Program-made: the position numbers and the translations under genes | Notes under the pieces: model-generated | Databases searched by the model: none | What the model saw: the letters and a program-made list of their open reading frames with translations, nothing else | What the model was told of the DNA's origin: nothing | Source: a virus | Strand: one strand, 5' to 3' | Virus genome (UHGV): UHGV-0097017 | DNA: 13,822 nucleotides | Shown here: positions 4,919-13,672 of the stretch, in pieces | Layout of the letters: each line of letters opens with the position of its first letter | How positions within the stretch are numbered: position 1 is the stretch's first letter

Positions 4919-6463
4919 ATGACCACTATAACCAAAGAGCGACTGCTGACAATCAAGCAGTGGCGCGAAACATACGGACCGGGTAGCAACGTTGTACTGC
5001 CAGCAGAAGAAGCGGAAGAACTGGCACGGATTGCACTGGCATCATTGGAAGCAGATCCAGTTAAACGAGTTAACTCAGATCAGATGCACCGAGTCTGCTT
5101 AGAAGCTAATCGCTATTTAGATAAATATGACGCGATGGCGAAAGAGGTAAATAAGTTGCTTGGACGCATCGCCCCGCCAGCGCCAGTATTTAACGGCGAA
5201 TACGGTGACGCATATCAGGGCGCTCGTGAAGACCTGTCCATCTGGAAACGGCGAGCGCTTGAAGCTGATGAGCACGTTCGGCGACTGGAGCAAATCAATG
5301 ACCACATGGTGAAAGAGGCGCAGGGAGAATCACGCATGGGCGAGCCTGTAATACGTGAGCCAGCACCGGTAGTGCCTGAAGAAGCAACTCCGGAAAACGT
5401 AGAAATGCTCTCTGGCTATGTTTCAACGTACAAATTAACCGATAGCGAGCGCGATATTGCTGCCGAAATATGGAACGCCTGCCGCGCCGCCATGCTTCAG
5501 TCCGGAAACTTTCGGGAAAACAAGAATTCGTCAACCAATAATTTTCGGGAAATCGCGGAAACGTCAACCAACTATCCGGCAATTCCTAGTGAGGTGTTGT
5601 CCGCAATCCTGAAGGTTGCCAGGATTCGTGCCGATTTCGATGATTTTGACGGTGACAGGCGAGGTATCGGTGATTGTCTGGATGAGGCCGAGCAAGAGCT
5701 TATCGTTACCATTAACAAATATGCCAGTCAGTTGGCAGCAGAACCGATAGCGACTAATGACGTTCGAGAGCAAACAGCCGTTCCGCCAATACAGGCTGAT
5801 GTCGCGCAAGCAATTGAAAATCTCAAGCAGAAGTTAGTGGAATGCAATCGCTATAACTACTGCGCAGATGCAGTGAAGAACGTAGAGGATGCCTGCCGTG
5901 CTGTTAGCTATAGCCAAGCCGACAATCAGCCAGCATCTGGCAACCAGGCTGCCGAATCCAATCGCGGTAATGAGTGGACTGGCAATCCTGATATTGATAA
6001 CGCCATCATCATGCTCGACCGCATAGATACGCTGGAAAATTGCGATGATGACCGTATTGAGGCTGTTAAGGCTGTTTTGCGTAGACTGGCAGGCAACTAT
6101 CCGGATATTCCGGATAGTTCGGTGCCAGCACCAGGAAAGGGCGTCACCGGTGAACGTATCCGAATTAAGCCGCATGTTTATCGCGAACTGGTTAACCGTC
6201 TCCACGATACAGCGATCAAGTGTGCTGGCACCCAGCAATTACGAGAAAGAATTAGCCGTGTTTTGGGCGACGTTATTACACCAGATCATCATAAACAAGC
6301 CGAGAAAAGTGGCCTGGAAAGGTGTCACCTTGAGGCGGCATTAAACATTAAGCCGGGGCATACGCTTGGCATTATTGATGCACTATTGGTTCATAAGATG
6401 GCCAGGGCTTTATTGCCGCTGGTGGCTGAAAAGCATGAGGCGGACCATGCCAACGAAAGCTGA
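4919..6463 (+). CDS. Large acidic hypothetical phage protein (514 aa)
   Basis: Strong Shine-Dalgarno TAAGGAG 6 nt before ATG 4919; long uninterrupted ORF. Contains an internal ~33-bp imperfect tandem repeat (NFRENKNSSTN / NFREIAETSTN). Confidence 0.75.
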   Translation: MTTITKERLLTIKQWRETYGPGSNVVLPAEEAEELARIALASLEADPVKRVNSDQMHRVCLEANRYLDKYDAMAKEVNKLLGRIAPPAPVFNGEYGDAYQGAREDLSIWKRRALEADEHVRRLEQINDHMVKEAQGESRMGEPVIREPAPVVPEEATPENVEMLSGYVSTYKLTDSERDIAAEIWNACRAAMLQSGNFRENKNSSTNNFREIAETSTNYPAIPSEVLSAILKVARIRADFDDFDGDRRGIGDCLDEAEQELIVTINKYASQLAAEPIATNDVREQTAVPPIQADVAQAIENLKQKLVECNRYNYCADAVKNVEDACRAVSYSQADNQPASGNQAAESNRGNEWTGNPDIDNAIIMLDRIDTLENCDDDRIEAVKAVLRRLAGNYPDIPDSSVPAPGKGVTGERIRIKPHVYRELVNRLHDTAIKCAGTQQLRERISRVLGDVITPDHHKQAEKSGLERCHLEAALNIKPGHTLGIIDALLVHKMARALLPLVAEKHEADHANES

Positions 6464-6731
6464 ATTACAGGTGCGCGTAGATGAGCTTGAAAAAGAGAAC
6501 GCGAGCCTCAAAAAAATGCTGTCGCGGGCGGAAAGGGAATTATCAGGCAAATTATTGCCAGAAGAACTGCCACCAGCAGATATACCTGATCGAGTGTCCT
6601 GGTGGATGAAGTATTTCCGTGCACCGTGGGAGGCGTTTTGGTGCTACGACCATCGCAGATGGTGTGATGAACTTGATAGCAGTTTTCCCTACTTTGCGGA
6701 AGGGAACACCTGCCCTCAATGCAGGGGATAG
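6447..6731 (+). CDS. Hypothetical coiled-coil protein with C-terminal CPQC motif (~94 aa)
   Basis: ATG 6447 is preferred over the ORF-track start at 6366 because it limits overlap with the 514-aa gene to 17 nt. N-terminal ELQVRVDELEKENASLKKML heptad-like segment. Confidence 0.5.
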   Translation: MPTKAELQVRVDELEKENASLKKMLSRAERELSGKLLPEELPPADIPDRVSWWMKYFRAPWEAFWCYDHRRWCDELDSSFPYFAEGNTCPQCRG

Positions 6732-7192
6732 CATTTGACGAAATCGATCACCCTATCCTGAACTTCAGAAAGAAGGTCTTTTTCACGCGCCAGGACGTCA
6801 GGATATTGACGTTCTGGCCTTATCAGATGCCGGAGCTTCCCATTAAGCAGAATGGCCTCAGAAAACACTTTTACGCTGTGCTTTATCCCCTCTGTTTCAC
6901 TTTTCAGCGTCAAAATAAAGCGCAATTGCTTATTAGCCTGATTCGGATTCAATACACGAATTTGCAGTTCGTCTATGCTGTTTCGCAATGGGATTGATGC
7001 CACCACACTGGTGCAGTCTCTGATTGTCTGAATTGAACGGCTAACATTGAGAACGTTATTGTGCATGTGCCTGATCCACTAACTCCTGGAGGTTTCTTGT
7101 GTCAGATCGAAATATAGCAGCTAAAAGCCAGGAAGAGCGAGACAAGGTGAACGTAGACCTTGCCGCCAGCGGCGTTGCTTACAAACCCCGCT

Positions 7193-7222
7193 TTCACAAA
7201 CTATGCCTTTTCAATGTATACT
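7193..7222 (+). promoter_or_regulatory. Putative sigma70 promoter of the humD-like gene
   Basis: TTCACA (7193-7198), 18-nt spacer, TATACT (7217-7222); the -10 element overlaps the LexA box. Confidence 0.45.
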
Positions 7223-7238
7223 GTGTGAATAAACAGTA
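7219..7238 (+). promoter_or_regulatory. LexA (SOS) operator
   Basis: TACTGTGTGAATAAACAGTA fits the E. coli SOS box consensus TACTGT-N8-ACAGTA with both CTGT/ACAG arms intact; it sits 18 bp upstream of the humD-like start. Confidence 0.8.
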
Positions 7239-7256
7239 TCATTAAGGTAAAACGCT

Positions 7257-7646
7257 ATGGGCTTCCCTTCTCCTGCGGCGGATTATGTTGAAAGCCGTAT
7301 TTCTCTTGATCAGCAACTAATCAGACATCCTTCAGCGACCTACTTCATGCGGGCGGCAGACAGCCATCACCGTGAGGGAATATTGCAAGGTGCTTTGCTG
7401 GTGGTTGATTCCTCACTTACTCCGGTTGATGGCTCACTGCTTATATGCGCTATGGAGGGAGAATATCGCGTAAAAAGATACCGGAAGTATCCGCGCCAGC
7501 ACCTGGAGGATTTAAGCACCGGGAAGAAAGAGGCGTTACCAGTAGATGACGATGGTTACACGGGTAGTAATGCTGTTTTTGGTGTGATCACCCACATTAT
7601 CAATGACGCCAGGGGCGGTGAATTTGATGATAGTCCTGCTATATGA
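7257..7646 (+). CDS. humD: UmuD'-like S24 peptidase-fold protein (HumD-like), lacking the N-terminal arm
   Basis: Translation starts directly at the GFPSPAADYVE motif that follows the cleavage site in UmuD. Retains the Ser-containing ADSH segment, the LLVVD segment and the Lys-containing GEYRVKRY segment. 129 aa, the size recalled for phage P1 HumD. Confidence 0.85.
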   Translation: MGFPSPAADYVESRISLDQQLIRHPSATYFMRAADSHHREGILQGALLVVDSSLTPVDGSLLICAMEGEYRVKRYRKYPRQHLEDLSTGKKEALPVDDDGYTGSNAVFGVITHIINDARGGEFDDSPAI

Positions 7647-7780
7647 TTTGTTTTCAGAGAAACCATAGAGAGGCATGACTGGATCTATATCGCCCTGGCC
7701 ATTTAAATGATTCCTCCCATTAGACGCGGTTACTCACTTGAAGATAAGATGAGGTTATAATTCTCTTTTTAGGTACGCGA

Positions 7781-8203
7781 ATGAGTTCGTCTGCTTTTGT
7801 CACTGTTGTCACTGGAGTAAGCGTTTTTGTCCTAGGTCGACTCATCATCAAGGGGGTTGAGTCTTACATTTCATTCAAGGAACAGTTGGGGGAAATATCG
7901 CATCTGTTATTGTCTAACCAAGCAAAGCTATCGAATCCCCGCTCTGACTTAAAACAAGAAATCATCCATGATTTGAAAGATGCGGCAGCACAGTTACGGG
8001 TGAAGTACGAACTATTACCTTTCTATATCAAAATGTTACACATCGGTTTTCGCCTTGTTCCATCAGAAACTGAAATTCGTAAAGCGGCGCAAGAATTGAA
8101 TCTGATAGCCTCGATACATGATGGTAAAACCGGAGAGCTGCCATATGAGCACATAGCCAAGATTGGATTACTGCTCAGAATTCCAACCACTTATTCTGCT
8201 TAA
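7781..8203 (+). CDS. Hypothetical single-pass membrane protein (140 aa), low-GC moron-like gene
   Basis: N-terminal hydrophobic helix AFVTVVTGVSVFVLGRLII followed by a charged helical domain. A consensus TATAAT lies at 7756-7761. GC is visibly lower than the flanking humD and phd-doc genes. Confidence 0.6.
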   Translation: MSSSAFVTVVTGVSVFVLGRLIIKGVESYISFKEQLGEISHLLLSNQAKLSNPRSDLKQEIIHDLKDAAAQLRVKYELLPFYIKMLHIGFRLVPSETEIRKAAQELNLIASIHDGKTGELPYEHIAKIGLLLRIPTTYSA

Positions 8204-8274
8204 TCCCAGCAATTGCAAGACTGCATCTCGAGGATTTAAGGCACCAAGAAGTGGTATTCAGCATCATTAAAACC

Positions 8275-8305
8275 TATAATTGCGTACACATAACGAGCAC
8301 ACGAG
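8275..8305 (+). promoter_or_regulatory. Candidate phd-doc promoter -10 and operator region
   Basis: Consensus TATAAT at 8275-8280, immediately followed by two related elements CGTACACA (8283-8290) and GAGCACAC (8295-8302) before the GAGG Shine-Dalgarno. This is the position where an autorepressor would occlude RNA polymerase. Confidence 0.45.
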
Positions 8306-8311
8306 GTGTTT

Positions 8312-8533
8312 ATGCAATCCATTAACTTCCGTACCGCGCGCGGCAACCTTTCTGAAGTGCTCAACAATGTTGAAGCCGGGGAAGAGGTTGAAATCACCCG
8401 CAGAGGCCGTGAGCCAGCAGTAATTGTTAGCAAGGCTACTTTTGAAGCCTACAAAAAAGCGGCGCTGGATGCCGAATTTGCATCCCTGTTTGACACCCTG
8501 GACTCCACCAACAAGGAACTGGTTAACCGATAA
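8312..8533 (+). CDS. phd: Phd antitoxin (prevent-host-death), Phd/YefM family
   Basis: Translation [41 protein letters not shown]... matches my recollection of phage P1 Phd over its full 73 aa. Stop and doc start overlap by 1 nt (TAATG). Confidence 0.9.
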
Positions 8534-8913
8534 TGAGGCATATATCACCGGAAGAACTTATTGCGCTTCATGATGCGAATATAAGCCGCTACGGCGGCCT
8601 GCCGGGAATGTCAGATCCGGGTAGGGCAGAGGCCATTATCGGGAGAGTTCAGGCCAGAGTTGCCTACGAAGAGATCACCGACCTTTTCGAAGTCTCCGCC
8701 ACCTACCTGGTGGCTACGGCGAGAGGGCATATATTCAATGATGCCAATAAGCGTACCGCGCTAAACAGTGCGCTGCTATTTCTACGCCGTAACGGTATAC
8801 AGGTATATGATGATCCCGTGCTGGTGGAGCTTGCAGTGGGGGCTGCAACTGGTGAAATCCCCGTATCTTCAGTAGCGAAAAAACTACGTGAACTATATGG
8901 TTCCAATATTTGA
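8533..8913 (+). CDS. doc: Doc toxin (death-on-curing), Fic-fold kinase
   Basis: 126 aa with the Fic/Doc motif [11 protein letters not shown]; translationally coupled to phd. Confidence 0.9.
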
Positions 8914-8948: not shown

Positions 8949-10043
8949 TCATTCAATGATTTTTTCGGCTGTCAGCCAGCTAATTTCGTGCCTGTCTTTC
9001 GGCGGTTTTAGCATGTGAGCATATTCAGCGACATGCTCCCACGGAATTGTTTTTGCCCACTCAACGATAGCATTGTGATCTGCAGTGAAGAGTGGAATAG
9101 TGTGCGATTTCAACCATTCTAATGTTGTGACGCCATGTTTTTTGGCGTGGTGCTGCGCATGATGCCGGGCTATCACTCGTAATGGCATTGTCCATTCACT
9201 ACCATCAGGCATCGAAAAGCGCATTGTCTTCGGCATATCTGATTCAAGAACAGCCTCCCTAATACCAGGGAACTCACCAAGAATCATACGACGATAGTCA
9301 TCACTATTTCGCCCGCCATACCTTTCGGCAAAATGATCAAGATATTCTTGGGTAATAAATGGTGAATCCTCCGCACTCAGCTTAATGGCTTTATATACAC
9401 CACTCGGATTATCTTCAGCTAAAGCACGTCCATGATGTGAATCATAAAAAAAGCCTATTTCCTCTGGTGACGGAATTGAAGTGAGCAATATGCGTGAATC
9501 ACCACTAGTCATGCTTGCCCACACAATGCTGTATGCCCGATCGCTGATATGTGCGGAATCCACAATAATGAATAAAAGATGGTCGGCGTAGTGACCTGCA
9601 ATGCTATCTTCATAGTTAAGGCGGTAGTTACAAAAGCACATTCCCCAAAATTCATTGAACATCAGACCGCTATCACCGACCTTAAAATACTCAATGATAA
9701 AAGGTTGTTTTTTCAGCAATGCCTCCCAACATTGCCACACATATGCAACAATTCCTCTTTTGCAAACATTTGATTTTGGATAAACAATTACTGTCCGGGA
9801 ATCAGGATACATAATCGTATAAAGGGTACTAATAACAGCAAGCACTTGCGGTCGTCCGATCCCATACGGAGTGGTGACAGTAGCTTTTGCATTATTGGGC
9901 TGTATAGCTTCAACAATTTGTTGTTGCTGGTGGCTTAAATCAATATCAAACAATTCTTTTGCTGCCAGTACCCAATTGTCTTTATATTTCTCCACCAGCG
10001 ACAGCCAGCGCGGATCTTTATAAATATTGCTCTTAGTCGCCAT
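8949..10043 (-). CDS. Hypothetical protein (364 aa), last gene of the minus-strand operon
   Basis: ATG at 10043 (translation MATKSNIYKD...) overlaps the upstream gene's stop by 11 nt; the ORF-track start at 10334 is an in-frame upstream extension. Segments LLFIIVDSAH, ILLTSIPSP and RRMILGEF loosely recall a P-loop/terminase-ATPase-like core, but no canonical Walker A (GxxxxGK[ST]) is present, so no function is assigned. Confidence 0.65.
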   Translation of the reverse strand: MATKSNIYKDPRWLSLVEKYKDNWVLAAKELFDIDLSHQQQQIVEAIQPNNAKATVTTPYGIGRPQVLAVISTLYTIMYPDSRTVIVYPKSNVCKRGIVAYVWQCWEALLKKQPFIIEYFKVGDSGLMFNEFWGMCFCNYRLNYEDSIAGHYADHLLFIIVDSAHISDRAYSIVWASMTSGDSRILLTSIPSPEEIGFFYDSHHGRALAEDNPSGVYKAIKLSAEDSPFITQEYLDHFAERYGGRNSDDYRRMILGEFPGIREAVLESDMPKTMRFSMPDGSEWTMPLRVIARHHAQHHAKKHGVTTLEWLKSHTIPLFTADHNAIVEWAKTIPWEHVAEYAHMLKPPKDRHEISWLTAEKIIE

Positions 10044-10800
10044 CTGCCACTTCCTTAACTTCTTCTTTGGCCTGTTCTGCAATCGCCGCACGGCATTTCG
10101 CCCTGGCTGTAGCGATTGCTTCAGCTCGCACATCGTCTGGAATCGTTGACGTGATATACATATCCAGTTCTTCGGCACGGAATACTGTTTGGTCCAGATA
10201 TTCGCGTAGCATCCAGGTAAATTCGAAATCACACGCGATAATCTCTGCGCTACCTTCTGCACCATTTGGGAAATGAATAAATGCCTGTTTAGCCAAACCG
10301 ATAACACGACATGCGGTTGCCAAAACAGCGACAACCAGGTTTACATTTTCACACGCTACGGGCTGATTAACGCCGGAGATTACTCCATTTAACTGTCGGT
10401 TATATGGAAGGTAGTTTGAGATGCGTTCTACGCGCCATGTGCCAGTCAGGCTGCCATTTTTAAAGATAATTGGTGTAACGGATAGCCCAAACTCGCGTAT
10501 AAGTCGTTGCGCTATAGCAGGATCATTAAACAGGTCTAATGCTACACATTCGAAAGACTGTGCAAGGGTAAACAGTTCTTCAAGAGAGTAGTCTTTGCCC
10601 CTGGCGGTGATGTAACGATGAACGCCGCTTTCTGCATCACTCCATATAGCTACGCCATGCTCTTCATTCAGCTCTTCATTAAAGCCGAGATACGTCATGA
10701 TAGTGCGTTCAATCGTGTCAAACGGCAGTGACATGTCGGCGTTAACAGCCACCAGCAGGCCATTACGCAAGCGGTATTGAATTGTTTTAGTGCTTTCCAT
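10033..10800 (-). CDS. Hypothetical protein (255 aa) with acidic Ala-rich C-terminal tail
   Basis: ATG at 10800 lies 6 nt after the upstream gene's stop, with GGAG upstream. No motif recognised. Confidence 0.65.
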   Translation of the reverse strand: MESTKTIQYRLRNGLLVAVNADMSLPFDTIERTIMTYLGFNEELNEEHGVAIWSDAESGVHRYITARGKDYSLEELFTLAQSFECVALDLFNDPAIAQRLIREFGLSVTPIIFKNGSLTGTWRVERISNYLPYNRQLNGVISGVNQPVACENVNLVVAVLATACRVIGLAKQAFIHFPNGAEGSAEIIACDFEFTWMLREYLDQTVFRAEELDMYITSTIPDDVRAEAIATARAKCRAAIAEQAKEEVKEVADGD

Positions 10801-10806
10801 GTCAAA

Positions 10807-11247
10807 TCACTCCACAACAAACCAGTCACAGGCCAGCAGGTCGCCAACTGAAGGCACCCACGGAACAACTACACCTTGTGCATTTTTTAAGGCGAAATAA
10901 GCACCATACGGAACGAGGTCGCCGGGGAAATATCCCTTAATGGCTTCCATTCGTGCCGGGTACTGTCCTTCAGGAACCAGCCAGCAGAATTGGTTTTCGC
11001 CGTTCCACCCGCGTCGAGCAACTTTCTTGCCTTCCTTCAGCCACATCAGCGCGTCTGAAAAGTCGGCTGCTTCAAGGTCGATTTCTTCTTGCTGGGTGGT
11101 GATGCCACCAGCAGAAATAGTTACGCTCCCGGTAAGATTAATCATCACGCCGTTGTCATCCGTAATGATGACCGTGGTTCCATTTTTTTTGTGAGCTTTG
11201 TATTTGGGACGGAACTTAAAAAGCTCTTTCGTTGCCATGTTATTCAT
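10807..11247 (-). CDS. DUF2829-like domain protein with ~60-aa N-terminal extension (146 aa)
   Basis: C-terminal FSDALMWLKEGKKVARRGWNG ... PYGAYFALKNAQGVVVPWVPSVGDLLACDWFVVE matches the recalled DUF2829 pattern (ALxxLKxGxKVxRxGWNG ... PWxxSxxDLLAxDW). Starts 14 nt after the dut stop. Confidence 0.65.
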   Translation of the reverse strand: MNNMATKELFKFRPKYKAHKKNGTTVIITDDNGVMINLTGSVTISAGGITTQQEEIDLEAADFSDALMWLKEGKKVARRGWNGENQFCWLVPEGQYPARMEAIKGYFPGDLVPYGAYFALKNAQGVVVPWVPSVGDLLACDWFVVE

Positions 11248-11261
11248 AGTCTTTTCTCTGC

Positions 11262-11756
11262 TTATAACTTTTCGTACTGAAGCGGTGAACGCTTAATTTC
11301 AAAGTGGCCTTCCGATGTGCTACCAAAGCCACCAGCACCACGCTCCGTTTCGTTGAGTTCCTCAACCTCGACTAGTGAGACTTGTTCAACACGCTCAAAA
11401 ATTCCTTGCATGACAGCCATTCCAGGCTTGAGACAAACGCCTTCCCCGCCGGGATCAGTAATCAGTTTTGCCATGATTTCGCCGCGATAATCGGAGTCGA
11501 TAATTCCTACGCAGTTAGCCAGGCGAGTATGTTTTTTGCAGCCCAATCCTGATCGCGGATAGAGTTTCAGACACCAGCCGGGCGGGATCTCCATAGCCAG
11601 TCCGGTATACACCCACCAGCTTGAGGAAATTGCACCATTGCTATCGACGCATGGTTTTATTTCAACAGCCTCAAAATCCATCGCCGCCGATCCGGAGGTG
11701 GCATAAGCTGGAAGTTTTGCTGCCGGATGTAGGCGTTTCACTTTTACGTAAATCAT
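11262..11756 (-). CDS. dut: dUTP diphosphatase (trimeric dUTPase) with short C-terminal extension
   Basis: Conserved dUTPase motifs AYATSGSA, PRSGLG, GIIDSDYRGE and RGAGGFGST. About 14 extra residues follow motif V compared with E. coli Dut. Confidence 0.85.
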   Translation of the reverse strand: MIYVKVKRLHPAAKLPAYATSGSAAMDFEAVEIKPCVDSNGAISSSWWVYTGLAMEIPPGWCLKLYPRSGLGCKKHTRLANCVGIIDSDYRGEIMAKLITDPGGEGVCLKPGMAVMQGIFERVEQVSLVEVEELNETERGAGGFGSTSEGHFEIKRSPLQYEKL

Positions 11757-12643: not shown

Positions 12644-13672
12644 TTACGAATCCATCAGGCGGCTATTAGCCCCCACAGACACGCCGCCACGGCGAAGATA
12701 CCGCATAAGTGTTTCCGGTTTCTTCCAGGTTCCTTCCTGCATGATCTCCACCATAGACACCTGCTTTTCAGCCATATCAATAGCGGCCCCGACGCGTGCA
12801 CTATGCCCGGTCCACGTCCGGTATCTTCCTTTGTTTGGCGTAGCATCTCTTTTATTCAGCAACACCCAGGCGTCGCTGAATATTTTCTCCATTGCAGGTG
12901 CAGTAAGGGGCGTTGTCGTGATCCTGGCCTTATTGCTACGGTGTATCGGCGGGAACAGCACTGCGTCAGGATGTTCGCGAAGCCCGGAAACATCCAGCCA
13001 GTCATTCAGCACAGCGGTAGTGCGACGGGAAAGCACCTTATCAAGCCCGGCGGCGGTCGTTATTGTCTTCGTGTGTGAAATATGTAGCGTGACAGTGTCA
13101 CCTGTTTGATCCAGATCTCCTACACGAATACGCGAGATTTCCGACATACGCATCAGCGTATTGTATGCAACAAAGAGAAAAGCCCGGTTGCGCAGGTCCA
13201 CCAGCCGTTCTGACCTGGACAACAGGACGTCGAGCAGTTTCAGATCGTCCCACCGCAGCGGTATAGCCTGGCCTGTTCGTTCGCCTTTTTCAGTTGCCGC
13301 TTCACGCCGGATGCGCCGCATAGCCAGAGAAACACTTTTATCATCCGAAAGTGGCGGAAGGCCACAATGCGAAAGCAGCATGTTAAGCATGGCGTAGTGC
13401 TTATCAATGGTGGTCGAAGCCAGATCAGCATCATGCAGCTGAAGAAAATACTCGCGGGCCATCTCTGGTGAGATCGGGAACCAGGCGAGCTGGCGAGCGT
13501 GACACCATCTCGCCCAGGAGTGAAACACTAACCGGAGATCGCGCAAAGTATTCGGCGCGTAAGCCCCCTGGTCATTCATGAACCGCATAAAGTTTTCTGC
13601 GGCCTCCTGGTACTCTTTGCCAATGTTGCGCAGAAAACCACCGGAGCTGCCAGAGATAATTAATTCACTCAT
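12644..13672 (-). CDS. Cre-family tyrosine site-specific recombinase (Cre/Dre-like), divergent from P1 Cre
   Basis: 342 aa, colinear with P1 Cre (343 aa). Shared blocks include VSLAMRRIRRE, NRAFLFVAYNTLMRMSEISRIRV, WTGHSARVGAA and IMQEGTW. Catalytic R (SRIR), K (HTKT), H-x-x-R (HSAR), W (GTW) and Y (RYLR) are all present. Overall identity to Cre is clearly partial, by eye about 40-50%. Confidence 0.9.
   Translation of the reverse strand: MSELIISGSSGGFLRNIGKEYQEAAENFMRFMNDQGAYAPNTLRDLRLVFHSWARWCHARQLAWFPISPEMAREYFLQLHDADLASTTIDKHYAMLNMLLSHCGLPPLSDDKSVSLAMRRIRREAATEKGERTGQAIPLRWDDLKLLDVLLSRSERLVDLRNRAFLFVAYNTLMRMSEISRIRVGDLDQTGDTVTLHISHTKTITTAAGLDKVLSRRTTAVLNDWLDVSGLREHPDAVLFPPIHRSNKARITTTPLTAPAMEKIFSDAWVLLNKRDATPNKGRYRTWTGHSARVGAAIDMAEKQVSMVEIMQEGTWKKPETLMRYLRRGGVSVGANSRLMDS

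What the first reader, a model, noticed from the sequence alone, without database searches (positions are those of the whole stretch)
7193..7646. Consensus LexA box controlling an N-terminally truncated UmuD' homolog
TACTGTGTGAATAAACAGTA at 7219-7238 is a near-perfect SOS box overlapping a TTCACA-18-TATACT promoter. The downstream protein begins exactly where processed UmuD' begins, so it would be constitutively in the activated form once induced. No umuC partner is present in the window. A mobile element carrying an SOS-induced, pre-activated mutagenesis accessory subunit is a known P1 feature, but it matters for host mutability.
Basis: partly seen in the sequence, partly recalled or inferred. 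Interest (0 to 1): 0.5.

Follow-up and report, generated by a model that had tools for sequence, protein, structure and literature searches.

The report
LexA-controlled phage humD gene (known)

Summary
TACTGTGTGAATAAACAGTA lies at 7219-7238. It is the only CTGT-N8-ACAG in the window and scores about 22.6 bits on a LexA matrix, in the class of the recA and sulA operators (shuffle maximum 17.8). It overlaps the -10 of a TTCACA-18-TATACT promoter-like site (10 of 12). The ORF at 7257-7646 (129 aa) is 100% identical to phage D6 HumD and 95% to P1 HumD. It passes NCBIfam's HumD equivalog model (213.5 bits against a cutoff of 120). It starts at Met plus the Gly25 equivalent of E. coli UmuD, with an in-frame stop three codons upstream. 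No umuC exists in the window in any frame, and no P1-family phage record holds one. A LexA box sits 18-19 nt upstream of humD in 82 of 82 related loci. A 20-27 bit box also lies upstream in 10 of 10 distant phage homologs with unrelated flanks, within 44 nt in nine. The P1 and phiKO2 records already annotate the site, and the literature calls HumD a pre-activated UmuD. Verdict: confirmed and already known. Local details: a 217-bp deletion shared with D6 truncates the neighbouring hot gene, lxr is absent, and a private A-to-G change weakens the box slightly. One side observation is unexplained: a conserved C-terminal tail found only in HumD-type proteins.

The parts
7193..7198 (+). -35-like hexamer TTCACA of the predicted humD promoter
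   Evidence: Scan result: TTCACA-18-TATACT, 10 of 12 matches. The same hexamer and spacing occur in RCS47. TTCACA -35-like hexamers also occur in the unrelated flanks of the Aeromonas pAEv1818 (18-nt spacer) and Hafnia yong1 (17-nt spacer) homologs.
7217..7222 (+). -10-like hexamer TATACT, whose last four bases are the first four bases of the LexA box
   Evidence: The same geometry, NATACT starting 2 nt before the box, is the best promoter match in 7 of 13 loci compared.
7219..7238 (.). LexA (SOS) box TACTGTGTGAATAAACAGTA, with a private G at 7225
   Evidence: The orthologous site is annotated as a LexA binding site in P1. A box is present 18-19 nt before the ATG in 82 of 82 related loci and upstream of 10 of 10 distant homologs.
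7244..7247 (+). Shine-Dalgarno-like AAGG, 9 nt before the humD ATG
   Evidence: Read directly from the sequence; inference.
7257..7646 (+). humD coding sequence: 129 aa, a UmuD'-length S24-fold protein with a C-terminal EFDDSPAI tail
   Evidence: 100% identical to D6 HumD, 95% to P1 HumD and 46% to E. coli UmuD. Matches 1UMU UmuD' at E = 1.7e-23. Pfam PF00717. NCBIfam NF051876 HumD equivalog, 213.5 bits against a cutoff of 120. PHROG 811.
7099..7245 (+). hot' remnant of the Pol III theta homolog gene (48 aa). Only the first ~28-31 residues are theta-like; the rest is read from the humD promoter and operator DNA.
   Evidence: The Pfam DNA_pol3_theta match covers profile positions 3-31 of 70 only. 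The alignment with RCS47 shows a 217-bp deletion. The same junction covers at least 80% of a 211-bp query in 105 plasmid records.
7180..7185 (.). Deletion junction: a TACAAA microhomology at which 217 bp were lost (the 3' part of hot and most of the hot-humD spacer)
   Evidence: Alignment of the window, D6 and RCS47.
7200..7229 (-). Weak minus-strand promoter-like site TTCACA-18-CATAGT, whose -35 lies inside the LexA box. It points towards orf106 (7066 to 6716).
   Evidence: 9 of 12 matches. The private G at 7225 is what makes this hexamer TTCACA instead of TTCATA. There is no further support, and it is listed only as a possibility.

Best explanation
The segment 7193-7646 is the humD cassette of a D6-like, P1-family phage-plasmid. 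A sigma-70 promoter has its -10 and predicted start site covered by a single LexA operator. It is followed 18 nt later by a gene for an orphan UmuD'-type protein.

In an undamaged lysogen, host LexA would sit on 7219-7238 and block RNA polymerase. After DNA damage, RecA-stimulated LexA self-cleavage would free the promoter and HumD would be made. HumD lacks the 24-residue N-terminal arm of UmuD, so it needs no RecA-mediated processing. It would dimerise and combine with the host's own SOS-induced UmuC to give a Pol V-like translesion polymerase. This skips the slow UmuD-to-UmuD' step that normally delays mutagenic synthesis.

Shown here:
- the sequence features and their statistical strength;
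- family membership;
- the exact N-terminal register;
- the absence of umuC;
- conservation of the box-gene unit across unrelated phages.

Taken from the literature: the 95%-identical P1 HumD substitutes for UmuD'.

Inferred:
- LexA binding to this particular variant;
- the transcription start;
- the benefit to the phage.
For: - **Operator strength and uniqueness:**
- **Promoter overlap:**
- **Protein identity and register:**. An in-frame stop lies at 7248-7250.
- **Conservation in close relatives:** 82 of 82 IMG/VR humD loci keep CTGT-N8-ACAG 18-19 nt before the ATG. The inner 8 nt vary, and the upstream flanks fall into at least four unrelated types.
- **Conservation in distant relatives:** 10 of 10 distant homologs (45-91% amino-acid identity among the nine intact or nearly full-length genes; from N15, phiKO2, HK639, HK140, BTP1, Huey and phages of Aeromonas, Hafnia and Enterobacter) carry a 20-27 bit box upstream in otherwise unalignable DNA.
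- **Cassette boundaries:** P1-to-window nucleotide homology spans only 7209-7636, which is the -10, the box and the gene.
- **Database annotation:** LexA sites are annotated in P1 and phiKO2.
[quoted passage not shown] It is called a LexA-regulated gene (PMC9603915). The title of McLenigan et al. 1999 is cited.
- **No umuC:** absent from the window and from P1-family phage records.
Against: - No binding or expression data exist for this sequence.
- The private G at 7225 removes the conserved A after CTGT in the left half-site and lowers the matrix score by about 2.5 bits. Repression may therefore be leakier than in D6.
- The matrix was built from operators recalled from memory.
- The 18-nt spacer and the TATACT -10 are sub-optimal.
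- As I recall the abstract of McLenigan et al. 1999, which is not held in the library, HumD is poorly expressed from P1.
- Read-through from the truncated hot' gene upstream could give LexA-independent transcription. No terminator separates the two genes.
- CRISPRi shows that humD is dispensable for P1 lytic growth (PMC10695390). Its benefit to the element is unknown.
Confidence: 0.85

Rival explanations
1. HumD's main role is not to build a polymerase but to modulate host UmuD. It might form heterodimers with full-length UmuD, cleaving it in trans with its retained Ser/Lys dyad or titrating it. That would cancel the UmuD2C damage checkpoint or alter UmuD turnover, to the phage's benefit.
For: The P1/D6-type proteins keep the Ser and Lys equivalents (S36, K73) although they have nothing of their own to cleave. 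All HumD-type proteins are orphans. From general knowledge, UmuD cleavage can be intermolecular and UmuD/UmuD' heterodimers form preferentially.
Against: The Ser is replaced by Thr, Tyr or Gln and the Lys by Met or Arg in other family members that keep the same LexA-box cassette. Catalysis therefore cannot be the family's conserved function. P1 HumD is reported to complement UmuD' in mutagenesis (title of McLenigan 1999).
Confidence: 0.08
2. The LexA box mainly serves a leftward transcript, as it does for lxr in P1 or the dinI-like gp22 in phiKO2; here that transcript would be towards orf106. On this view humD is transcribed chiefly by read-through from the hot' promoter, so its SOS control is weak or incidental.
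For: P1 annotates the site as regulating both lxr and humD, and places PhumD elsewhere. phiKO2 has divergent promoters around its box. A minus-strand promoter-like site has its -35 inside the box. The hot' stop lies 11 nt before the humD ATG, with no terminator between them. The title of Chikova and Schaaper 2007, cited, says P1 hot is expressed in lysogens.
Against: lxr is absent here, and orf106 is unrelated to it. The minus-strand site has 9 of 12 matches, in a region where 3.6 such sites are expected by chance. The feature conserved across unrelated phages is the short, fixed distance from the box to the humD start (14-21 nt in 11 of the 13 loci compared), and most of those phages have no divergent gene. 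A LexA dimer bound downstream of an upstream promoter would also hinder read-through.
Confidence: 0.06
3. The palindrome is a chance inverted repeat, or an RNA hairpin or terminator for the hot' remnant, and not a protein-binding site.
For: It can form a 6-7 bp hairpin (seen in the fold of the RCS47 spacer).
Against: The stem is AT-rich and has no T-run, and it was not called as a terminator. It scores 22.6 bits against a shuffle maximum of 17.8. The invariant positions across 92 loci are exactly the LexA-contacted CTGT and ACAG, while the loop bases vary. There is no Rfam match.
Confidence: 0.01

Closest known systems
HumD of bacteriophage P1 (McLenigan et al. 1999, J Bacteriol 181:7005; P1 genome record NC_005856, gene humD, with annotated LexA site 87545-87564)
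   Same: 95% amino-acid identity, the same 129-aa length and the same M-G-F-P start. The LexA box is at the same distance from the ATG. There is no umuC. phd-doc lies downstream.
   Different: The box sequence differs (P1 has TACTGTATAAATGAACAGTA). P1 has lxr divergently upstream and an intact hot gene. P1's -10 is TGTACT and its -35 region is unrelated. P1 has no ORF between humD and phd.
orf108 (UmuD-like protein) of Escherichia phage D6 (NC_050154 / MF356679), a P1-related plasmid prophage
   Same: The protein is 100% identical and the DNA is 99.1% identical over 1.6 kb. D6 has the same 217-bp hot truncation, the same promoter and the same downstream orf109.
   Different: Two single-base differences lie in the control region: G instead of A at 7225 inside the box, and A instead of G at 7243. 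The window also differs from D6 further away, with about 0.9 kb extra DNA between doc and the DUF2829 gene and a longer ORF at 4919-6463.
E. coli umuDC operon and UmuD' (PDB 1UMU, 1I4V, 8GMT)
   Same: The same S24 fold family, at 46% identity. The protein aligns from Gly25 to the end of UmuD'. It has a single strong LexA operator at the promoter, and the umuDC box TACTGTATATAAAAACAGTA is of similar type (operator recalled from memory).
   Different: There is no N-terminal arm or Cys24-Gly25 cleavage site, so no RecA-dependent activation step. There is no umuC in the operon. It has about 10 extra C-terminal residues (GGEFDDSPAI) that UmuD lacks.
gp26 of phage N15 and Gp23 of phage phiKO2 (linear plasmid prophages)
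   Same: Orphan HumD-type proteins, 66-69% identical, with the same start, the same C-terminal tail and a LexA box upstream. The box is annotated in phiKO2.
   Different: They sit in a different genomic context, next to sopB. The Ser60 equivalent is Thr.

Membership tests
HumD family (NCBIfam NF051876, equivalog) | Whole-protein score above the curated cutoff of the family model | tested here: met
   213.5 bits against a cutoff of 120, covering residues 1-128 of the 129-position profile. PHROG 811 'UmuD-like', E = 8.5e-55.
HumD family (NCBIfam NF051876, equivalog) | The gene encodes a protein of UmuD' length that starts at the Gly25 equivalent, with no N-terminal arm or cleavage site | tested here: met
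   Alignment with E. coli UmuD and with the 1UMU chain. An in-frame TAA at 7248-7250 lies three codons before the ATG.
HumD family (NCBIfam NF051876, equivalog) | Orphan gene: no cognate umuC in an operon with it | tested here: met
   No IMS-family hit in 25 of the longer ORFs scanned. Six-frame tblastn with a phage UmuC gives a best E-value of 0.075. Only one Escherichia phage record (PHB10, not a P1-family phage) appears among the 60 UmuC-positive records listed, out of 91.
HumD family (NCBIfam NF051876, equivalog) | Functional replacement of UmuD': dimer formation, binding to UmuC and RecA filaments, and restoration of SOS mutagenesis | not testable with these tools
   Reported for P1 HumD, which is 95% identical (McLenigan et al. 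1999; title seen; the details are from my memory of the abstract, and the paper is not held).
LexA (SOS) operator of Enterobacteria | 16-bp palindromic core CTGT-N8-ACAG, ideally TACTGT-N8-ACAGTA | tested here: met
   Exact match at 7219-7238. It is the only one in the window, against 0.11 expected.
LexA (SOS) operator of Enterobacteria | Matrix score within the range of experimentally validated operators | tested here: met
   22.6 bits and an HI-like value of 4.8, comparable with recA (22.7) and sulA (23.0). The training range is 12.7-26.3 bits and the shuffle maximum is 17.8. The matrix was built from operators recalled from memory and is therefore approximate.
LexA (SOS) operator of Enterobacteria | Position overlapping promoter elements or the transcription start | tested here: met
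   The box overlaps the last 4 nt of the predicted -10 and would cover the predicted start. The promoter itself is only predicted.
LexA (SOS) operator of Enterobacteria | Conservation of the site upstream of homologous genes in diverged genomes | tested here: met
   Present in 82 of 82 close loci and 10 of 10 distant phage homologs.
LexA (SOS) operator of Enterobacteria | LexA binding in vitro and damage-inducible, lexA-dependent expression in vivo | not testable with these tools
   No data for this sequence. PMC9603915 states that humD is LexA-regulated, citing earlier work.
Full-length autoproteolytic UmuD / MucA / RumA (Pol V accessory subunit precursors) | N-terminal arm with a Cys/Ala-Gly cleavage site that is removed by RecA-stimulated self-cleavage | tested here: not met
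   Absent. Five phage UmuD homologs linked to umuC all have it.
Full-length autoproteolytic UmuD / MucA / RumA (Pol V accessory subunit precursors) | Ser-Lys catalytic dyad | tested here: met
   S36 and K73 align with Ser60 and Lys97. The dyad is not conserved across the HumD family.
Full-length autoproteolytic UmuD / MucA / RumA (Pol V accessory subunit precursors) | Operon with a umuC-type Y-family polymerase gene | tested here: not met

The most novel reading that the evidence does not exclude
HumD-type proteins may be more than N-terminally shortened UmuD. They may form a distinct orphan class defined by four linked traits:

- a start at the Gly25 equivalent;
- their own LexA box;
- no umuC;
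- a conserved extra C-terminal tail, [ED][FW]DDxP[VAL]x-COOH (EFDDSPAI here).

The tail is absent from all five umuC-linked phage UmuD homologs examined and from E. coli UmuD. It could be a docking peptide. By eye it resembles the acidic SSB C-terminal tip DFDDDIPF. Such a peptide could let the phage protein capture host UmuC, RecA filaments or SSB-binding pockets, and so outcompete or bypass host UmuD'.

I found no discussion of this tail in the papers I could search. The key papers were not available, so it may already have been described.
Probability: 0.15. Interest if true: 0.4.

Novelty: already known. Interest (0 to 1): 0.1.

Why it matters
This adds nothing new in kind. HumD, its UmuD'-like length, its lack of a umuC partner and its LexA site have been described for P1 since 1999-2004. 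The identical protein is annotated in phage D6, and NCBI has a dedicated HumD family model.

The cassette is common, which gives it practical relevance. humD-like DNA is present in 806 of 5426 complete E. coli genomes, mostly on phage-plasmids. These elements also carry resistance genes. A damage-induced supply of pre-activated Pol V accessory subunit could raise mutation rates under antibiotics that trigger SOS.

The window-specific details are small variations and do not add a new mechanism. They are a slightly weakened operator, the hot gene reduced to a remnant that runs through the operator, and the absence of lxr.

Tried and rejected
- **Papers not held.** I tried to read McLenigan et al. 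1999 (PMC94175), Lobocka et al. 2004 (PMC523184) and Chikova and Schaaper 2007 (PMC2072811). None is held. Statements about HumD biochemistry rest on titles, on citing papers and on my memory of the abstract.
- **Terminator lost in the deletion?** I looked for a terminator between hot and humD in RCS47 that the D6-type deletion might have removed. The scan found none, and the fold shows only a weak GGGGG/CCCCC stem with no T-run.
- **Terminator after humD in the window.** None was found.
- **Known RNA families in the window.** None.
- **Is orf106 a substitute for lxr?** There is no similarity.
- **Regex error.** My first pattern for LexA boxes in distant homologs used CTG-N9-CAG by mistake and found nothing relevant. 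The matrix scan corrected this.
- **Exact source of the window.** No exact source was found. The best matches are D6 at 99.1%, plasmids at 98.0-99.0% and E. coli complete genomes at 98.7%. The exact box variant with G at 7225 was not seen in the 82 related humD loci examined.
- **Large searches not run.** I did not run the large protein-database searches or a structure prediction, because they could not change the verdict.

Full report
**What is in the sequence.** The finding's coordinates are exact.

- TTCACA lies at 7193-7198, followed by 18 nt and then TATACT at 7217-7222.
- The 20-mer TACTGTGTGAATAAACAGTA lies at 7219-7238.
- An AAGG ribosome-binding motif lies at 7244-7247.
- An ATG-initiated ORF of 129 codons runs from 7257 to 7646.
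- An in-frame TAA at 7248-7250 means the ORF cannot be extended upstream.

**Is it more than chance?** Yes, on several counts.

- CTGT-N8-ACAG occurs once in the 13.8-kb window on either strand, against 0.11 expected from shuffles.
- Both outer arms, TACTGT and ACAGTA, are perfect.
- I built a symmetrised position weight matrix from 26 E. coli LexA operators. I recalled these from Lewis et al. 1994 and Fernandez de Henestrosa et al. 2000, so the matrix is approximate.
- On it the site scores 22.6 bits, level with the recA (22.7) and sulA (23.0) operators.
- The second-best site in the window scores 9.3 bits. In 200 shuffles the best site averaged 9.4 bits and never exceeded 17.8.
- The promoter scan reports TTCACA-18-TATACT as a 10-of-12 match. 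That scan is weak by itself, with 2 hits against 3.6 expected in 2 kb.

**Where the window comes from.**

- Positions 6700-8300 are 99.1% identical to Escherichia phage D6, a P1-related plasmid prophage. They are about 91% identical to P1 and P7, but only across 7209-7636.
- That shared block is exactly the -10, the box and the gene. The unit therefore behaves as a cassette bounded by recombination breakpoints.
- Around it the window carries typical P1/D6 cargo:
  - phd-doc at 8306-8913;
  - a Cre-like recombinase at 12644-13672 on the minus strand;
  - a dUTPase;
  - a Tad2-like domain protein;
  - a DUF968 / pdcB-like protein;
  - a metallophosphatase.
- Related plasmids are abundant in E. 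coli and Salmonella.
- humD-like DNA occurs in 806 of 5426 complete E. coli genomes. It is found at 714 places on plasmids and 141 on chromosomes.

**The protein.**

- The ORF product is 100% identical to D6 orf108, 95% to P1 HumD, 93% to RCS47 HumD and 46% to E. coli UmuD.
- It matches the UmuD' crystal chain 1UMU at E = 1.7e-23, with residue 2 aligned to residue 1 of that chain. It also matches full-length UmuD (8GMT) from residue 25.
- It passes Pfam Peptidase_S24, PHROG 811 and NCBIfam's equivalog model NF051876, 'HumD family translesion DNA polymerase'. The NCBIfam score is 213.5 bits against a cutoff of 120.
- The equivalents of the catalytic Ser60 and Lys97 are present (S36, K73).

**No polymerase partner.**

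- Pfam scans of 25 of the longer ORFs gave no IMS/UmuC-family hit.
- A six-frame tblastn with a phage UmuC gives nothing better than E = 0.075 over 32 residues.
- Among 50,697 phage records, 91 encode a UmuC relative at E <= 1e-10. The only Escherichia phage among the 60 listed is PHB10, which is not a P1-family phage. On the organism counts, P1, P7, D6, RCS47 and N15 have none.

**Conservation of the operator-gene unit.**

- Eighty IMG/VR loci encode close HumD relatives. With D6, P1 and RCS47 that makes 83 loci, and 82 of them have a recognisable start.
- All 82 have CTGT-N8-ACAG 18-19 nt upstream of the ATG. The CTGT and ACAG tetramers never change, although twelve different 20-mers occur. 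The DNA further upstream falls into at least four unrelated types.
- I then fetched ten distant homologs. The nine intact or nearly full-length genes are 45-91% identical in protein, and the BTP1 copy has an internal stop. They come from other phage lineages: phiKO2, N15, HK639, HK140, Enterobacter vB_Ecl_MII_003, Huey, Aeromonas pAEv1818, Hafnia yong1, BTP1 and Cyrano.
- Every one has a single 20-27 bit LexA box upstream. It lies 14-44 nt before the start in nine, and ahead of a small intervening ORF in HK140. The flanks are otherwise unalignable.
- In 7 of the 13 loci compared, the best promoter match places an NATACT -10 two bases before the box, as it is here. Part of that is built in, because the box itself supplies TACT. 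The -35 matches are independent of the box.
- This is strong comparative evidence that the box is a functional operator for humD.

**Already described.**

- The P1 reference record annotates the orthologous 20-mer as 'LexA binding site in the regulatory region of lxr and humD'. It also notes that HumD 'functionally complements E. coli UmuD''.
- The phiKO2 record annotates a lexA site between a dinI-like gene and its humD homolog.
- PMC9603915 calls humD a LexA-regulated SOS gene and treats humD-phd-doc as a shared module of P1-like phage-plasmids.
- PMC10695390 finds that hot, lxr and humD are non-essential for P1 lytic growth.
- The primary paper is McLenigan et al. 1999. It could not be read here, and only its title was visible. 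As I recall its abstract, HumD restored mutagenesis in recA430 lexA(Def) cells, formed dimers, bound UmuC and RecA filaments, and was poorly expressed.

**Most likely mechanism.**

- LexA occupies 7219-7238 and occludes the -10 and the start site.
- SOS induction removes LexA, and HumD is made in a form that needs no RecA-mediated cleavage.
- HumD then pairs with host UmuC, which is induced at the same time, to form a Pol V-like enzyme earlier than the host pathway would allow.
- The sequence-level steps are shown here and the biochemical ones are borrowed from P1 HumD.
- LexA binding to this particular variant, the transcription start and the selective advantage are inferred.
- My confidence in this explanation is about 0.85.

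**What is particular to this window.**

1. **Truncated hot gene.** Relative to RCS47, the window and D6 lack 217 bp between two TACAAA microhomologies (junction at 7180-7185). The deletion removes the 3' two-thirds of hot, the Pol III theta homolog, and most of the hot-humD spacer.
   - The remnant ORF at 7099-7245 has 48 codons and keeps only theta-profile positions 3-31 of 70.
   - It then reads through the humD promoter and operator and stops 11 nt before the humD ATG.
   - It is probably non-functional, yet it is annotated as 'DNA polymerase III theta subunit' in D6 and has its own 48-residue PHROG.
   - The same junction is present in 105 plasmid records.
2. **No lxr.** The gene that lies divergently upstream of the LexA box in P1 is absent, and orf106 on the minus strand is unrelated to it.
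3. **Private base change in the box.** The box carries a G at 7225 where D6 and RCS47 have A. This lowers the score from 25.2 to 22.6 bits. It also turns a minus-strand hexamer into TTCACA. The exact 20-mer was not seen in the other 82 loci.
4. **Extra ORF.** A 140-codon ORF of unknown function (7781-8203, PHROG 7512, with a hydrophobic N-terminus) sits between humD and phd, as in D6.

**Rivals considered.**

- **Modulator or trans-protease of host UmuD.** This is weakened by the finding that the Ser and Lys equivalents are not conserved across HumD-type proteins that keep the same cassette. The Ser becomes Thr in N15, phiKO2, HK639, HK140, the Enterobacter phage and Huey, Tyr in the Hafnia phage and Gln in the Aeromonas phage. 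The Lys becomes Met or Arg in three.
- **The box chiefly serves a leftward transcript, with humD read through from hot'.** This cannot be excluded. It fits poorly with the conserved short box-to-ATG distance in phages that lack any divergent gene.
- **A chance palindrome or hairpin.** This is excluded by the statistics and by the pattern of conservation.

**An unexplained side observation.** All HumD-type proteins carry about ten extra C-terminal residues ending in [ED][FW]DDxP[VAL]x.

- The tail is EFDDSPAI here and EFDDCPVI in 75 of 79 intact close relatives.
- It is conserved even at 45% overall identity, while the loop before it varies.
- Five phage UmuD homologs that keep the N-terminal arm and cleavage site are each followed by umuC, and none has the tail.
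- In this small sample (11 against 5 loci) the traits separate cleanly into two classes.
- The tail's function is unknown. Its resemblance to the acidic SSB C-terminal tip is only an impression.

**Verdict.** The feature is already known, and the window is a close variant of an annotated phage genome. Interest is low.

Noticed in passing
window 7099-7245 (+), junction 7180-7185: The hot gene (Pol III theta homolog) is reduced to a 48-codon remnant by a 217-bp deletion between TACAAA microhomologies. Only theta-profile positions 3-31 of 70 remain, and the ORF then runs through the humD promoter and LexA box. D6 and RefSeq plasmids still annotate it as 'DNA polymerase III subunit theta'. The junction is shared by 105 plasmid records.
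   Followed up: yes
window 7614-7643 (HumD C-terminus); alignment A3: HumD-type proteins share a conserved extra C-terminal tail, [ED][FW]DDxP[VAL]x. E. coli UmuD and five umuC-linked phage UmuD homologs lack it. By eye it resembles the acidic SSB C-terminal tip. Its function is unknown.
   Followed up: partly
alignment A3 (loci L084-L091): The catalytic Ser60 equivalent is Ser only in P1-like HumD. It is Thr in six homologs (N15, phiKO2, HK639, HK140, Enterobacter vB_Ecl_MII_003, Huey), Tyr in the Hafnia phage and Gln in the Aeromonas phage. The Lys97 equivalent is Met or Arg in three. This fits relaxed selection on self-cleavage chemistry in the orphan class.
   Followed up: partly
window 7225 and 7200-7229 (-): The private A-to-G change in the LexA box also converts a minus-strand hexamer from TTCATA to TTCACA. 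That gives a 9-of-12 promoter-like site pointing towards orf106 (7066 to 6716, PHROG 2594, unknown function, unrelated to P1 Lxr).
   Followed up: partly
window 7781-8203 (+): A 140-codon ORF of unknown function with a hydrophobic N-terminus lies between humD and phd (D6 orf109, PHROG 7512). It has no Pfam or NCBIfam hit, and it is absent from P1 and RCS47 at this position.
   Followed up: partly
window 10807-11247 (-): This ORF carries a Tad2-like (Thoeris anti-defence 2) domain, Pfam PF11195 at E = 5.9e-23. It lies next to a dUTPase gene (11262-11756, minus strand) and could be an anti-defence gene on the phage-plasmid.
   Followed up: no
window 8949-10334 (-) and 4919-6463 (+): The window differs from D6 outside the humD region. 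About 0.9 kb of extra DNA lies between doc and the DUF2829/Tad2-like gene, with a 461-codon ORF (PHROG 5902, unknown function). A 514-codon mosaic ORF occupies the place where D6 has a 360-codon pmgU-like gene.
   Followed up: no
locus L092 (Salmonella phage BTP1), 401-764: The BTP1 humD homolog has an in-frame stop after about 28 codons (…RPAAT*FMR…) and is unannotated in the record. It is apparently a pseudogene that still keeps a 27-bit LexA box 17 nt upstream.
   Followed up: no
locus L002 (P1), 2045-2071 versus 2510-2529: The P1 record places the predicted PhumD promoter about 440 nt upstream of the LexA box, inside lxr. P1's own -10 next to the box is TGTACT, whereas nearly all other P1-like loci have TATACT. 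The P1 laboratory strain may therefore have an atypically weak box-overlapping promoter.
   Followed up: partly
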